A stretch of 64,000 nucleotides of DNA from Octopus vulgaris. Its lineage: Eukaryota. The notes beneath the pieces were generated by a model, which saw nothing but the letters and a program-made list of their open reading frames with translations, had not been told where the DNA came from and did not search any database. The position numbers were made by a program, and so were the translations under genes. This document shows, in pieces, positions 49,507-55,141 of the stretch (position 1 is its first letter; each line of letters begins with the position of its first letter). The stretch covers positions 71,238,001-71,302,000 of the forward strand of contig OX597826.1 in the NCBI GenBank assembly GCA_951406725.2. The letters are read 5' to 3'.

Positions 49507-49700
49507 CTGTGTTTGTCCCCCTAGCATTGCTTGGCAACCGATGCTGGTGTGTTTACGTCCCCGTCACTTAGCGGTTCGGCAAAAGAGCCGATAGAATAAG
49601 TACTGGGCTTACAAAGAATAAGTCCCAGGGTCGATTTGCTCGACTAAAGGTGGTGCTCCAGCATGGCCGCAGTCAAATGACTGAAACATGTAAAAGAGTA
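49299..49700 (+). mobile_element. SINE family A
   Basis: Near-full match. Confidence 0.9.
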
Positions 49701-50527
49701 TCACTTAAGTTTATGTATTTTTTTCTGTATGTATTACGTGTTTATGTATATTTGTGTAAGTACTGTATATGTATGTGTATATATTATGTGTTTATATATA
49801 TTTGTGTAAGTACTGTATATGTATGTGATCACCGTGACCGACCAGGCTATCAGATGTTGTTACACATCGCTGGTCGCAATGCGCTTCGCATTGTTCTAGC
49901 CTTCAAATGACGCCACCCCACTGGCTAAGCGAGCAGAAAGTTGTGGCGAAAGAGTACAGCAGGGATCGCCACCATCCCCTGCTGGAGCCTCGTAGAGCTT
50001 TAGGTGTTTTCTCTCAATAAATCGAAACCGCGATCCTACGACCGCTGCCCTAACCATTGGGCCATTGCGCCACCACGTATATGTATGCGTATGTATAAAT
50101 AAACATGGCAATTCAGCTGAAAAAAAAAATTAAGAAATAGACATACACACAGATATACATACATGCACGTAAACACATACATATGTTTATTTACATACAA
50201 AAATATACATACATGCACACATAATAAACAGAAGGGCCAAACTTAGAGGGGTCAACAGAAAATGAATACGGGGTCGTGAAGCGTATGGGATTTACATAGA
50301 AATGAATTTAAAATTTGCAATAATAATTCTCTAAAAGGAATATAGACAGTAACTGCTCGACAACATAAGGGACTAAAGCCATCTGAATATGGCTAGGGAC
50401 AGGGCAGGGTGGTGGGGGTGTTACTGTTGCATTTAGCCCCAGGCGAACATCGACGTCACCAGAAAGGCTCGACACCGTCACGGTGCCCTAAACCTGCAAA
50501 GGGAGGTAATTCCCCGATGAAGCGGAA

Positions 50528-50579
50528 ACCACACACGGACCATGGTTTCAAGGTGTATTGCCTATCATCGGCGTGTGGT
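50528..50579 (-). ncRNA. Type I hammerhead (CCGAUGA core), unit 1
   Basis: accacacg CCGATGA t-agg-caataca-cct-t GAAA ccatgg TC^ cgtgtgtggt. Confidence 0.78.
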
Positions 50580-50886
50580 AGGCCTCCGCTTCCTCGACGA
50601 ATTCTCTCTCTGCAGGATTTTCTTATATAGATTTTCAAGCAAAATAAATTTGCTGATTTCGAAAATCTGTTCGAAAGCAATAATAATTCTCTAAAAGGAA
50701 TATAGACAGTAACTGCTCGACAACATAAGGGACTAAAGCCATCTGAATATGGCTAGGGACAGGGCAGGGTGGTGGAGGTGTTACTGTTGCATTTAGCCCC
50801 AGGCGAACATCGACGTCACCAGAAAGGCTCGACACCGTCACGGTGCCTAAACCTGCAAAGGGAGGTAATTCCCCGATGAAGCGGAA

Positions 50887-50938
50887 ACCACACACGGACC
50901 ATGGTTTCAAGGTGTATTGCCTATCATCGGCGTGTGGT
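50887..50938 (-). ncRNA. Type I hammerhead, unit 2
   Basis: Identical to unit 1. Confidence 0.78.
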
Positions 50939-51246
50939 AGGCCTCCGCTTCCTCGACGAATTCTCTCTCTGCAGGATTTTCTTATATAGATTTTCAAGCA
51001 AAATAAATTTGCTGATTTCGAAAATCTGTTCGAAAGCAATAATAATTCTCTAAAAGGAATATAGACAGTAACTGCTCGACAACATAAGGGACTAAAGCCA
51101 TCTGAATATGGCTAGGGACAGGGCAGGGTGGTGGGGGTGTTACTGTTGCATTTAGCCCCAGGCGAACATCGACGTCACCAGAAAGGCTCGACACCGTCAC
51201 GGTGCCCTAAACCTGCAAAGGGAGGTAATTCCCCGATGAAGCGGAA

Positions 51247-51298
51247 ACCACACACGGACCATGGTTTCAAGGTGTATTGCCTATCATCGGCGTGTGGT
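51247..51298 (-). ncRNA. Type I hammerhead, unit 3
   Basis: Identical to unit 1. Confidence 0.78.
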
Positions 51299-51644
51299 AG
51301 GCCTCCGCTTCCTCGACGAATTCTCTCTCTGCAGGATTTTCTTATATAGATTTTCAAGCAAAATAAATTTGCTGATTTCGAAAATCTGTTCGAAAGCAAT
51401 AATAATTCTCTAAAAGGAATATAGACAGTAACTGCTCGACAACATAAGGGACTAAAGCCATCTGAATATGGCTAGGGACAGGGCAGGGTGGTGGGGGTGT
51501 TACTGTTGCATTTAGCCCCAGGCGAACATCGACGTCACCAGAAAGGCTCGACACCGTCACGGTGCCCTAAACCTGCAAAGGGAGGTAATTCCCCGATGAA
51601 GCGGAAACCACACATATGAGAATTCGTCGAGGAAGCGGAGGCCT

Positions 51645-51696
51645 ACCACACGCCGATGATAGGCAATACACCTTGAAACCATGGTCCGTGTGTGGT
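51645..51696 (+). ncRNA. Type I hammerhead in the inverted unit
   Basis: CCGATGA at 51653-51659, GAAA at 51675-51678, GUC^ cleavage after 51686. Confidence 0.78.
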
Positions 51697-52659
51697 TTCC
51701 GCTTCATCGGGGAATTACCTCCCTTTGCAGGTTTAGGGCACCGTGACGGTGTCGAGCCTTTCTGGTGACGTCGATGTTCGCCTGGGGCTAAATGCAACAG
51801 TAACACCCCCACCACCCTGCCCTGTCCCTAGCCATATTCAGATGAATTTAAAATTTATTTTAGATATAAAAGCGAATGAAAAACAAACAAGACAACAGTA
51901 CAAGGAAGTGGCGGGAGAGAACGTTTAAGACCCCCAAGATACGTTCCCCTTCTGGACTTTGTACTCACGCAGGAACTTTCATTCCCAGCATGTTTTCTAC
52001 TTGCTTCCATCTTTTACCAAACGTGTCTGATGACAAGCACCCCTTTTCTAGCCTTATAAACAAAGAAAGTTAACAAACTTTGACCAGAGACGAAGACTGG
52101 TGGCACCCCAGTAATATATGTCACAGTTCCTAATCGTTATTACTATCAATGAATATACATACATACAAATATGCCTACGTAAGTACATTTATACACACAC
52201 ACATACACACACACACACAAACATATACACACACACAGAGTTAAGTCTGATTTATTCATCATATCCAAAATTAGAAGAATAAGCTTTCTCTCTTCTCATT
52301 CCCTCTCTCTCTCTCCTCCTACTCTCTTTCTCCCCTCTCCCTTTCTCCCCTTCTACCTCTCCTTTTCTGCCCTTCTCCCTTCTCTTCTTCTCTCCTCATC
52401 TCTCCCTCTTTCCTCCTCTCTCAATTTATGTTTTATTTTCTCTTCAAGAATTTGATTATTTTGTTTAGTTCAATTGAAAATATCACCCTTTCCCATCCAT
52501 CTAACCACACCACCTTTCTCTGATAACTTTTGGTGGTTGTCCTTGAGAAGGCAGCACCCATTATGCATGTATACAAACATATGCACATTGATTACAGGTA
52601 TCTTATCACAGATGTCTGCTACAAGTCACAGATGATTGCTCCAGGTAAAATGTATACCT

Positions 52660-52886: not shown

Positions 52887-53139
52887 AGATATCTGTCACC
52901 AATCCTTTCATTCGTGTTCTCCATATAGCCTCTTTGGCATTCTTTCGATATGAGTCCCATTTACGTCACGTGTATTTGTTTACATTTGAAGAAGAAGATC
53001 GTCACTTTCCGTAAAATTTTTATTTTTTTATATACGTGGGGGTAAGGGTTAAGGGTGGAGGGAAGAGTTTCTTTTTTCTTCAGAAATGTAAATAAACCCA
53101 CGTGGGTTGATATGACAGTTATGTTACTAGTACCGAATA

Positions 53140-53760
53140 ATCGCCGCCTCTTTCGCTATAGCAACCACTACAAGGAAACAGACCTTACCTTCTCTGTTCA
53201 GTGAGGTAGGTGGAACAATGTTTATGACTGACTCGGACGACAGCTGTACTCTTCCAAGACGTGACAGCAGTCGTTCGACGTAAGCCCACAGCTCTGAAAT
53301 CCTCGAACACTGCACAAATGCTTGCGGAACAGTTTCACTGTCCCTCCCACATCTTGGGCAGGTGGGTGAGCATGAGGTACCATGCCTTGCGAGTTTATCG
53401 TGAACTGGTAAAGTTCCTCGGTAACACTGCCAGCTTAGCGACGTCTGGAAGTTGTCCAGAGATCCCGGCCCGAATGTCCTTTGCAACAGGCTGGCTAGTT
53501 GGCCTTCGTCGAAGCCCAGGGTTTCTCCCAGAGTCTTATCACACTTGGTCTCTACAAACCCTCCATAGAATGACGAGGTGGAACCCACGCTACCAGCATT
53601 GACCGTGCAGCAGAAGAGCAAGAGTGCCGAACGATCGAGTCGATGTTGCTGTATAACGCTGTGATCTAACCGTGAAAGATCGGGCCCAGCCCGGCCACCG
53701 CAAAAACCGTCACCAGACACCGATGGTCAACCCTATCAAAAGTTTTAACCTGGTTTAAAT
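53140..53760 (-). mobile_element. L1/Tx1-like LINE ORF2 remnant
   Basis: KTFDRVDH (RT) and GTLPVHDKL...TCPRCGRDSETVPQAFVQC (C-terminal zinc finger). Confidence 0.7.
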
Positions 53761-55141
53761 GTACAAGCACCCCACATAGCATATACGATGGAGATTCAGC
53801 CACTCTGCTTGGCTGGGTGGGATCAGTGATCACCAGTGAGAAAAGAGTTCGGACGAAAGGTGCCGTGGTGATGGTGAAGCGCCGTCTAGGAGTTCTGGGA
53901 GAATTGATTGCCAAGTTCGGACTGAAGCTGAACGTGGTTTTCGTGCCTTCGAAGAGAAACAGGGCAGATGCACTGACCAGGGTGAAAAGGGCGCGGTTGG
54001 AGGAACCGGAGGAGGCAAAGAAAGGGATAGCTACGGAGTATCAGTTAGATGACTCCGAACTGAAGAGACTACACGCTGTGCATCACTTGGGTGTGAACAG
54101 GACTCTGTATGTCGCAAAGATGATTGATGCTGACATCACTATGAGAAGCATCCGGAAAGTGGACGGGAACTGCGATAGGTCTCAGTCCATTGACCCTGCT
54201 CCGTGTGGGCATGAGCAAGGAAACCTTTCGATGGAGCAGAACTGGAAGAGACTAGCTGTGGATGTGATGCACTACTGTCAGGGAATGTATCTCTCCATGG
54301 TCGACTGCAGGCCGGGCCGGCTGGCCATTTGGAGGGAGTTGAGGACGGGCGTTACTGACGAGATTTTGAACAGGATATTTTTAGAGAGGGGTCCCGTGGA
54401 AGAATTGCTAATGGACAACGAGGCGGCGTTTCGTTCGGAAGCGTTGAGGGATATGCTCGACCGGTGGAAGTGCGTCGCTTGTTCAGAGCAGCGTATAGGC
54501 CGAGCGGTAATGGAATCGTAGAAAGGCACCATCGGATAGTAAAGGCCATTGCGGAAAGAGGGCACATTTCACCGCTGGAAACAGTTTTCTGGTACAACAT
54601 GTCTCCCCGATCCGGACAAGCTGAAGAATCTGTGCCACACAGAGCACTATTTAAATACAAATGGAGGCATCCGAGTAAAGCGCTGGAGTGTCACGAGGAA
54701 GCGAAGGGACCCCCTGCATGAAAATAGGGGAGGAAGTCTGGGTTAAGCTACCGAAAGCTCGCTGTACGTCTCAATGGAGCAGAGGAATGGTGACGGCAGT
54801 CAATTCCAGAAACAACGTCTCCGTGGATGGAATGCCGCGACACGTCTTGGACCTTCGCAGGATTGTCGCTTCGTTGGATGACGATTATGGAGAGGAGGAG
54901 AACGAGGTGCCTAGCCTGAGAAGATCTCGACGTGCAAGGTGCCCCCAGTTGGATGATGGACTTCGACGTGGAGTAGAGGGAATGTGATCTTTAAGATCAG
55001 GGTGGCATGTGGGATGACGTCAGCAGCTGGGGAGCTGACTGGAAGAGAAGGGGCGCAGCGGTGACGCGTGCGCAGGCAGGAGACGATTGGGCATTTTCGA
55101 TCGGGGAAACTGACAGTGCTTGACATGTGAGCGCTTCGACA
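53761..55141 (+). mobile_element. Gypsy-type LTR retrotransposon 3' part: RNase H end, integrase, PPT and putative 3' LTR (54983-55141)
   Basis: NRADALTR; HHLGVNRTLY; WKRLAVDV; LLMDNEAAF; AYRPSGNGIVERHHR; purine tract before TGTGA; putative end CA. Confidence 0.8.

What the first reader, a model, noticed from the sequence alone, without database searches (positions are those of the whole stretch)
50302..51856. Retrozyme-like insertion: 3.6 tandem 360-nt hammerhead units plus an inverted unit inside a 15-bp TSD, suggesting rolling reverse transcription of a small circular RNA
Seen: units of 360/359/360/219 bp differing at only two positions that I could see; an inverted ~225-bp copy; a perfect TSD ATGAATTTAAAATTT; no credible ORF. 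Each complete unit has a minus-strand type I hammerhead with a CCGAUGA core, palindromic CCAUGG stem III and a GUC site. The unit is heavily self-complementary (ctgcaaagggag/ctctctctgcag, gaagcgga/tccgcttc, acagtaac/gttactgt, agccat/atggct). Known: Penelope-like elements and animal non-LTR retrozymes carry minimal type I hammerheads that work as dimers, and retrozyme repeats yield circular RNAs. Inference: both flanks prime cDNA of the same polarity (twin priming; 3-nt ATG microhomology on the right). Priming is at two different internal positions, neither at the cleavage site, and both cDNAs read through that site. This fits a circular or uncleaved multimeric template copied in one young event by a Penelope RT in trans.
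Basis: partly seen in the sequence, partly recalled or inferred. Interest (0 to 1): 0.9.

Follow-up and report, generated by a model that had tools for sequence, protein, structure and literature searches.

The report
Retrozyme copied round and round
This is one of roughly 800 insertions of a 360-base non-coding repeat that carries a hammerhead ribozyme motif; all repeats within an insertion usually share the same rare, mostly A-to-G changes, so each insertion was likely made by a Penelope-type reverse transcriptase copying one small, probably circular RNA again and again from both cut ends of the target DNA.

Summary
The insertion belongs to a family with about 800 ends in this genome, mostly inserted in (TA)n; no sampled copy is joined to a Penelope ORF. 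It is a non-LTR retrozyme, i.e. a non-autonomous Penelope-like element (PLE): a known kind.

The family says much about mechanism. Outer ends are fixed at two sites 45 nt apart (the PLE 'tail'), one per flank: 92 of 96 two-block loci, none with the same site twice. cDNA crosses the ribozyme site with no indels and no pile-up of ends. Rare variants are shared by all units of one insertion, often in both orientations. They are A>G in RNA sense in 13 of 28 cases, against 14 of 129 unit-specific ones (P=5e-5). The youngest arrays are the longest, up to 23 units.

Best reading: twin-primed, rolling-circle reverse transcription of one RNA monomer, sometimes A-to-I edited.

Against: 2 of 66 loci look copied from a multimer; no ADAR neighbour preference; cleavage, circles and the partner RT are not shown.

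The parts
50302..50316 (+). Left target-site duplication (15 bp apparent; 12 bp plus 3-nt microhomology is possible); its 3' end is the inferred primer of the direct block
50317..50676 (-). Unit 1 (RNA sense is the minus strand); starts exactly at family priming site A (phase 1); identical by majority to the unit at 11 other loci
50317..50361 (-). 45-nt 'tail' between the two fixed priming sites A (phase 360/1) and B (phase 46)
   Evidence: matches the PLE tail described in PMC8557442 and PMC11167929
50493..50616 (-). Predicted rod of about 36 bp extending hammerhead stem I; first-pass cDNA ends cluster near its base (phase 151-180: 32 of 90)
50532..50577 (-). Type I hammerhead motif 1; C3 at 50571, predicted cleavage 50538/50537
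50677..51035 (-). Unit 2 (359 bp, two unit-specific differences)
50891..50936 (-). Hammerhead motif 2; predicted cleavage 50897/50896
51036..51395 (-). Unit 3
51251..51296 (-). Hammerhead motif 3; predicted cleavage 51257/51256
51396..51614 (-). Partial unit 4 (phases 1-219); 5'-truncated end of the first cDNA
51615..51617 (.). Three non-unit bases at the inversion junction
51618..51844 (+). Inverted block (unit phases 290 to 64; RNA sense is the plus strand); inferred second cDNA primed from the right flank
51647..51692 (+). Complete hammerhead motif 4 in the inverted block; C3 51653, C17 51686
51842..51856 (+). Right target-site duplication; the first 3 nt also match unit phases 64-66 (7 of 9 nt match over phases 58-66)

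Best explanation
This is a young insertion of a non-coding, hammerhead-bearing 360-bp repeat (a non-LTR retrozyme) whose family has fixed outer ends at two sites, one per flank; it was likely made by a Penelope-like RT/endonuclease acting in trans, which would nick both target strands and copy one, probably circular, RNA monomer many times over from each nick. Steps: (1) A tandem array is transcribed (inferred). Two hammerheads are predicted to pair through the palindromic stem III and cut out a 360-nt monomer, which a host ligase would close into a circle (inferred from coral, mussel and axolotl retrozymes; not shown here). (2) A PLE protein, probably a dimer, nicks AT-rich or (TA)n DNA on both strands about 12 bp apart (TSDs shown; enzyme inferred). 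(3) One 3' end primes at site A and the other at site B, 45 nt upstream on the RNA (geometry shown). (4) Each RT runs round the same monomer for under 1 to about 15 turns (multi-unit blocks shown; single template inferred from shared variants). (5) The two cDNA ends are joined head-to-head with little or no overlap, giving tandem plus inverted blocks inside a TSD (shown). A single edited adenosine in the template would be copied into every unit, which is the likely source of the A>G excess.
For: Family size: 805 junctions of TA with site A genome-wide, reversed-pattern control 2. Geometry: of 129 loci examined, 96 were complete two-block loci, 92 with A+B ends, 4 with A+other and none A+A or B+B. 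On C1, from independent lists of 68 A and 52 B ends: 31 facing A/B pairs, 0 A/A, 0 B/B. Target: 83 of 96 lie in TA runs on both sides. Read-through: 0 indels in 3,247 aligned positions around the cleavage site, against 240 of 155,349 overall (about 5 expected). Only 5 of 119 later-pass cDNA ends fall at phase 215-228 (4.6 expected) and 7 near site A (5.3 expected); 335 of 341 internal site-A junctions are identical. Single template: 28 rare variants are shared by all (>=75%) covering units of one locus, in 25 loci, and 22 of 28 are in both orientations. Two were tested genome-wide and are confined to their locus: 12 of 12 matches and 8 of 8 on both strands. RNA-level origin: 13 of 28 shared variants are A>G in RNA sense against 14 of 129 unit-specific ones (P=5e-5), A>G:U>C is 13:2 (P=0.007), and the excess holds when collapsed to distinct sites (12 of 25, P=6e-5) or private-only (7 of 14, P=0.001). 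Born long: 9 of 14 youngest-subfamily loci are >=1.8 kb against 12 of 85 older ones (P=2e-4), up to 23 units. A- and B-block lengths correlate (rho 0.58, n=92; 0.49, n=62), and B is longer than A in 37 of 92, so B is not a copy of A. Ribozyme under selection: strict core 2 of 954 changes against 628 of 38,943 overall; the loop palindrome is kept through AU/UA swaps and C3-G8 varies as CG/UG/UA. Machinery present: 16 of 150 scored GIY-YIG hits have 781-aa frames; the ORF has RT plus GIY-YIG; these elements end in (TA)n, with a ~37-nt tail in 3 of 10 and an inverted tail-less copy in one. Precedent: the Anolis PLE protein nicks and extends both strands and starts internally at two sites bracketing the tail (PMC11167929).
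Against: Mirrored pass-specific changes, the mark of a multimer template, occur in 2 of 66 testable loci: L049 (four linked sites) and L147 (one site); 5 of 55 site tests were mirrored. The two reversions at L047 site 278 (19 of 21 units carry the variant) can be read as an inosine misread twice, but also as one template unit if the B pass is offset by one. The A>G sites show no ADAR neighbour preference (5' neighbour G in 5 of 12 distinct sites; G is disfavoured, recalled) and no clear excess of pairing (0.63 vs 0.57). Many unit-specific variants may be sequencing errors, which inflates the comparison set. The active hammerhead fold is not the monomer MFE (-4.4 vs -19.5 kcal/mol), young copies have C instead of the usual U at position 4, and only 1 of 9 Xenopus retrozyme dimers cleaved in vitro (10.64898/2026.07.22.740005). 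In the Anolis PLE, ribozyme cleavage was dispensable and unprocessed RNA was the main substrate in vitro. No PLE sharing sequence with the unit was found. On pairs with a change on both sides, covariation is not above shuffles (4 pairs; 102 of 500 shuffles reach it). Most loci were found through the A end, and 129 of about 800 were examined.
Confidence: 0.68

Rival explanations
1. Same two-site twin priming, but on an uncleaved linear multimeric transcript of a pre-existing array; the ribozyme plays no part in transposition.
For: Seamless read-through of the cleavage site fits this equally well. L049 and L147 show changes mirrored at the same pass in both blocks. Anolis PLE uses unprocessed RNA in vitro. 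The monomer ribozyme fold is weak.
Against: An RNA-level change would hit one unit, not all. Variants in 12 of 12 or 8 of 8 units exist nowhere else in the assembly, so no parent array is seen. A>G strand bias of all-unit variants. No large master array: the young 30-mer has only 201 genome matches. The strict core is about 8-fold more conserved than the unit average.
Confidence: 0.14
2. One linear, self-cleaved monomer whose ends are held together by stem I (a nicked circle) is copied repeatedly, with the RT jumping from the 5' end back to the 3' end each turn.
For: Explains all single-template evidence without needing a ligase. Repeat synthesis by template jumping is known for other RTs (DRT2, PMC12039810, search listing only).
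Against: No indels in about 405 passes over the junction and no excess of cDNA ends there (5 of 119). End-to-end jumps usually leave extra or missing bases (recalled).
Confidence: 0.08
3. Short two-block PLE-type insertions were later lengthened and homogenised in the DNA by unequal crossover or gene conversion (the satellite-birth model for retrozyme arrays).
For: Proposed for vertebrate retrozymes in 10.64898/2026.07.22.740005. Homogenisation could spread one variant to all units.
Against: The youngest loci are the longest. The two block lengths correlate. Shared variants have an RNA-strand A>G bias in both orientations. Unit-specific changes persist in the same arrays.
Confidence: 0.07
4. 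The long arrays are assembly artefacts (collapsed or expanded repeats).
For: One locus (L050) interleaves retrozyme patches with an unrelated repeat, and some single units are degraded, as consensus errors would give.
Against: Locus-private variants present in every unit cannot come from other loci. Exact TSD and fixed ends. A second, unrelated PLE family shows the same design.
Confidence: 0.03

Closest known systems
Metazoan non-LTR retrozymes (Cervera and de la Pena 2020, PMC7229834; I read parts 2 and 4 of 6 and search passages)
   Same: Small non-coding tandem units with a type I hammerhead, GC below 50%, TSD longer than 4 bp, self-paired fold. The hammerhead resembles axolotl HHR_Amex2 (2-bp stem III with tetraloop, U.U at the base of stem II). 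That paper proposes circRNA as template for tandem cDNA, probably via PLEs.
   Different: The words 'inverted', 'rolling', 'microsatellite' and 'octopus' do not occur in its main text (supplement not seen). There circles and cleavage were shown and the copying step was hypothesis; here the copying step has genomic evidence and the RNA is not shown.
Endonuclease-containing Penelope-like elements (Craig et al. 2021, PMC8557442, passages; Adineta Penelope, PMC3846280, passages)
   Same: Tandem copies plus an inverted 5'-truncated copy, a tail at one end only, (TA)n target bias; TSDs of 8-10 bp in Adineta; non-autonomous multicopy head-to-tail derivatives known in Chlamydomonas.
   Different: No ORF; tail 45 nt rather than 30-40; both blocks can be many units long; no sequence link to an autonomous family found.
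Poseidon PLE of Anolis in vitro (Frangieh et al. 2024, PMC11167929; parts 1-2 of 4 read)
   Same: Internal initiation at two adjacent sites that bracket the tail, nicking and extension of both strands, AT-rich targets, predicted dimer.
   Different: That work saw no difference in start site between strands and found ribozyme cleavage dispensable. Here each insertion uses each site once (92 of 96, never the same twice), and a monomer template is indicated.
Vertebrate retrozymes as non-autonomous PLE derivatives (Li, Clavereau and Pollet 2026, 10.64898/2026.07.22.740005; parts 1-3 of 5 read; bioRxiv supplements closed)
   Same: Co-occurrence with PLEs; multimer arrays; rolling-circle mobilisation mentioned as likely.
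   Different: They link retrozymes to pLTRs by sequence and discuss local amplification by unequal crossover; junctions, inversion and per-locus variants are not analysed in the parts I read.
PLE hammerheads (Cervera and de la Pena 2014, PMC4209133, passages)
   Same: Palindromic stem III for dimeric cleavage; pairs of motifs on opposite strands 100-700 bp apart; proposal that circles template more-than-unit reverse transcription.
   Different: Their minimal motif has a long helix II and a conserved G10.1-C11.1 pair; this one has a short helix II with U.U.

Membership tests
Non-LTR retrozyme | Short (150-450 bp) non-coding unit in tandem copies, no LTR | tested here: met
   360-bp units, 3.6 here and up to 23 per locus; longest frame over the element 158 aa stop-to-stop
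Non-LTR retrozyme | Type I hammerhead motif in each unit | tested here: met
   Core, stems and covariation; Rfam itself gave no hit; C at position 4 in young copies
Non-LTR retrozyme | TSD longer than 4 bp, dispersed copies | tested here: met
   15 bp here, about 11-13 bp at eight informative loci; 805 A-end junctions
Non-LTR retrozyme | Self-cleavage of the RNA | not testable with these tools
   Only fold energies: palindrome duplex -11.2 kcal/mol; monomer active fold not the MFE
Non-LTR retrozyme | Expression as linear and circular monomer RNA | tested here: inconclusive
   No holder on record as RNA; contigs only
Non-autonomous Penelope-like element | Tandem plus inverted 5'-truncated copy | tested here: met
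   96 of 129 loci are complete two-block insertions
Non-autonomous Penelope-like element | Tail at one end only (two fixed initiation sites) | tested here: met
   92 of 96 have A+B ends, tail 45 nt
Non-autonomous Penelope-like element | AT-rich or (TA)n target | tested here: met
   83 of 96 in TA runs on both sides; this locus is AT-rich but not (TA)n
Non-autonomous Penelope-like element | Terminal sequence shared with an autonomous PLE | tested here: inconclusive
   No similarity to 30 GIY-YIG loci or 11 long elements beyond a 26-nt in-ORF match at E 0.08-0.14; only the top GIY-YIG hits were examined
Autonomous PLE (unit is merely a pLTR) | RT-GIY-YIG ORF joined to the repeat | tested here: not met
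   tblastn against 129 loci gave 1 hit (L143), about 960 nt away across unrelated DNA; most loci are closed on both sides by target DNA
Plant LTR retrozyme | Type III hammerhead in paired LTRs, 4-bp TSD | tested here: not met
   Type I motif, tandem units, TSD of 11 bp or more; PBS/PPT not searched

The most novel reading that the evidence does not exclude
The genome records rolling-circle, target-primed reverse transcription of single circular RNAs: a PLE RT dimer primes both target strands at two programmed sites on one covalently closed 360-nt circle and copies it up to about 15 turns each, writing individual ADAR-made inosines into every unit of the new insertion. This would be direct evidence for the circle-template model of retrozymes, a one-step explanation of PLE tandem/inverted/tail structure, and a route by which RNA editing becomes heritable DNA.
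Probability: 0.4. Interest if true: 0.85.

Novelty: new member of a known kind. Interest (0 to 1): 0.66.

Why it matters
How PLEs make their tandem/inverted/tail insertions is described as undefined (PMC8557442), and circles as reverse-transcription templates for retrozymes have been a proposal since 2014-2020. In this family a small unit, hundreds of insertions and a very young subfamily make each insertion a readable record of one event. The per-locus variant test separates monomer from multimer templates and can be run on any genome with retrozymes. The genome also supplies an intact candidate enzyme and a defined 360-nt substrate with two mapped start sites for an in vitro test. My literature searches (open-access library only, mostly listings) turned up no paper reporting these signatures for a retrozyme; subscription papers and unseen supplements may.

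Tried and rejected
Rfam scan: no hammerhead family hit.

Circularly permuted starts as the sign of a circle: rejected, the starts are fixed.

Template jumping at site A: no excess of ends or junction errors there.

A plus-strand look-alike core at 50514 lacks the GUC/stem III arrangement.

The 'diverged relative' inside L050 proved to be part of an unrelated composite repeat of about 2.2 kb; L050 was left out.

Autonomous partner: not found by sequence among 30 GIY-YIG loci and the long elements fetched.

RNA evidence: no RNA holder listed; the runs are only guessed to be RNA. In four laid runs (contigs only), X6 and X13 each have one 390-nt contig covering a full unit plus 30 nt and bridging the unit junction and the ribozyme site; X3 has a 359-nt contig. 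The dominant haplotype differs between runs, X13 is another organism label, and the right unique flank has no cover. Contigs cannot show strand, ends, circularity or editing, and DNA carry-over is not excluded, so this is used neither for nor against.

ADAR neighbour and pairing tests gave no support.

The empty site and raw long reads could not be checked. PMC5785218 (dimer cleavage of PLE hammerheads) is not held; I cite that point only through the review PMC6765202 (passages). Our-findings look-ups by place, sequence and long word list returned nothing.

Rows dropped before counts: 3 of 129 loci had no unit hit; 13 were cut by the fetch edge or complex and were left out of end counts. Variant counts used 118 loci, units >=93% identical, no sites within 4 nt of a gap, and alleles in <=2 loci, which excludes the recurrent site-291 A>G and 3 intermediate-frequency variants. 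Eleven loci picked for a long A-B distance were excluded from the age-length test.
Full report
1. Observation. The window holds a 15-bp direct repeat at 50302-50316 and 51842-51856 enclosing 3.6 tandem 360-bp units and an inverted 227-bp copy of unit positions 64-290. Unit 2 differs at two positions, three non-unit bases lie at the inversion point, and the inverted copy overlaps the right TSD by 3 nt. The minus strand carries a type I hammerhead: core CCGAUGA, a 6-bp stem I, stem II of 3 bp with a U.U base, and GAAAC CAUG GUC with the 8-nt palindrome ACCAUGGU. The predicted cut is 50538/50537. Rfam does not call it. Across loci the strict core changes in 2 of 954 locus-positions against 628 of 38,943 overall. 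In 12 aligned copies the palindrome centre varies as AU 6, UA 5, UG 1, and C3-G8 as CG 6, UG 4, UA 2. 98.5% of cells pair (0 of 500 shuffles reach this), but the number of pairs with two-sided change (4) is not above shuffles; the sequences are related and I chose the structure from them. The longest frame overlapping the element is 158 aa stop-to-stop.

2. The family. The genome is 2.8 Gb in 227 contigs; the repeat landscape looks like an octopus to me (recalled, not established by any search). The unit gave at least 297 matches, and the 150 listed fall in 24 loci. A junction pattern gave 805 sites, control 2; a few are stubs or chance (3 of 129 fetched). I examined 129 loci: the window, 23 from the DNA search, and the rest from A-end pattern lists. 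96 are complete two-block insertions with both cDNA-sense blocks pointing inward, 17 are one-block, 13 are edge-cut or complex. Outer ends are fixed at site A (phase 360/1) and site B (phase 44-48): 92 A+B, 4 A+other (this locus among them), none A+A or B+B; one-block loci are 15 A and 2 B. Because of the A-end ascertainment I also paired independent A and B lists on C1: 31 A/B, 0 A/A, 0 B/B. 83 of 96 sit in TA runs; eight informative targets show TSDs of about 11-13 bp, read by eye. No locus is joined to a PLE ORF. The window unit equals the majority sequence at 11 other loci, so the event is very young. This locus is unusual in its non-TA target and its second end at phase 64-67, where 7 of 9 target bases match the unit.

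3. This is PLE anatomy. Tandem plus inverted copy, a tail at one end and (TA)n targets are described for PLEs. The Anolis PLE protein nicks and extends both strands and initiates internally at two sites that bracket the tail. So fixed, internal, two-site priming is known chemistry; the strict one-site-per-flank rule is what this family adds. The genome has a young candidate enzyme: 16 of 150 scored GIY-YIG hits lie in 781-aa frames, with RT and GIY-YIG domains and a CxxxxCxxC linker as in Neptune/Nematis. These elements end in (TA)n with or without a ~37-nt tail, and one has an inverted tail-less copy. They share no sequence with the unit, so the partner is not identified.

4. What was the template? 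(a) Read-through: 0 indels in 3,247 positions around the cleavage site. Later-pass ends show no pile-up there (5 of 119) or at site A (7 of 119); first-pass ends peak at phase 151-180, near the base of a predicted long rod. (b) Homogeneity: of 94 loci with at least five diagnostic sites covered twice, 9 were heterogeneous, and only L049 and L084 at four or more linked sites. 28 rare variants are shared by all units of their locus, 22 in both orientations; two tested genome-wide occur only at their locus. (c) Spectrum: shared variants are A>G in RNA sense in 13 of 28 against 14 of 129 unit-specific (P=5e-5), with A>G:U>C 13:2; this is robust to collapsing. At L047 one such variant is in 19 of 21 units and reverts once per block while a neighbour 13 nt away does not. 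(d) Length: the youngest loci are the longest (9 of 14 vs 12 of 85 at >=1.8 kb), and the two block lengths correlate. Together these point to one RNA monomer copied many times by both primers. A covalent circle is the simplest such template, and A-to-I editing the simplest source of the bias (both inferred; a transcription-linked A>G bias in source DNA is not excluded).

5. Against. Two of 66 loci (L049, L147) carry changes mirrored at the same pass in both blocks, as a multimer template would give, and L047's reversions mirror with an offset of one pass. So some events probably used multimers or larger circles. The A>G sites lack an ADAR neighbour signature. The monomer's active fold is unstable, fitting dimer-only cleavage but also weak activity; 1 of 9 Xenopus dimers cleaved, and cleavage was dispensable for the Anolis PLE. 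At least one locus looks like a consensus artefact (L050). No experiment on this RNA exists here.

6. Comparison and novelty. By anatomy it is a non-LTR retrozyme and a non-autonomous PLE. The defining RNA properties could not be tested, and it is not a pLTR of an autonomous element in any sampled locus. The circle-to-tandem-cDNA model is published as a proposal, and a 2026 preprint discusses local amplification instead. I found no report of per-insertion shared variants, A>G bias or the one-site-per-flank rule in my searches. An earlier AI note in this scan describes a similar Penelope-type tandem repeat in TA microsatellites that has no ribozyme (unchecked); if right, the architecture alone does not prove a ribozyme-made circle.

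7. Verdict. Real; a new member of a known kind; unusually informative about mechanism. Best explanation 0.68, interest 0.66; novel case probability 0.4, interest 0.85.

Noticed in passing
L121-L130 (e.g. L125:1206-3548 +): Young, intact PLE family: 781-aa RT+GIY-YIG frame, long 3' UTR with repeated CCAAT/CRE-like motifs, a TATA-like box and a variant hammerhead-like motif about 70 nt before the tail-less end; targets (TA)n. A ready candidate for in vitro PLE work.
   Followed up: partly
L211:520-960 and L202-L214; window unit phases 49-117 (50365-50433): A composite repeat of about 2.2 kb with many near-identical copies (Helentron/HINE-like start, recalled; SINE pieces; 107-bp minisatellite) shares about 65 nt with the retrozyme unit (local score 59 vs shuffle maximum 33). 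Direction of capture unknown.
   Followed up: partly
L050:2400-3280: Retrozyme patches interleaved with the unrelated 2.2-kb repeat inside one insertion: either repeated template switching or an assembly consensus artefact.
   Followed up: partly
L049, L084, L090: The innermost unit switches to another subfamily haplotype; in L049 both blocks switch at the same pass, in an interval that contains site A rather than the cleavage site.
   Followed up: partly
unit phase 291 (window 50607): The same RNA-sense A>G change is the majority allele at several loci on at least three haplotype backgrounds: a possible editing hotspot or a sub-lineage.
   Followed up: partly
window 50621-50631, minus strand: TATA-like sequence about 50 nt upstream of the hammerhead's 5' strand; could be the unit's own promoter.
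   Followed up: no
window 53127-54987: Decayed LINE-like frame on the minus strand and a Gypsy-like integrase region on the plus strand, judged by eye; unrelated to the finding.
   Followed up: no
window 49560-49700 and 49840-50076: Copies of very abundant SINE-like repeats next to the insertion; 50000-50076 has very high contig depth in all four laid runs.
   Followed up: no
L094, L118, L111, L112, L132: At least three further, more divergent PLE families; the four 3' ends printed all run into (TA)n.
   Followed up: no
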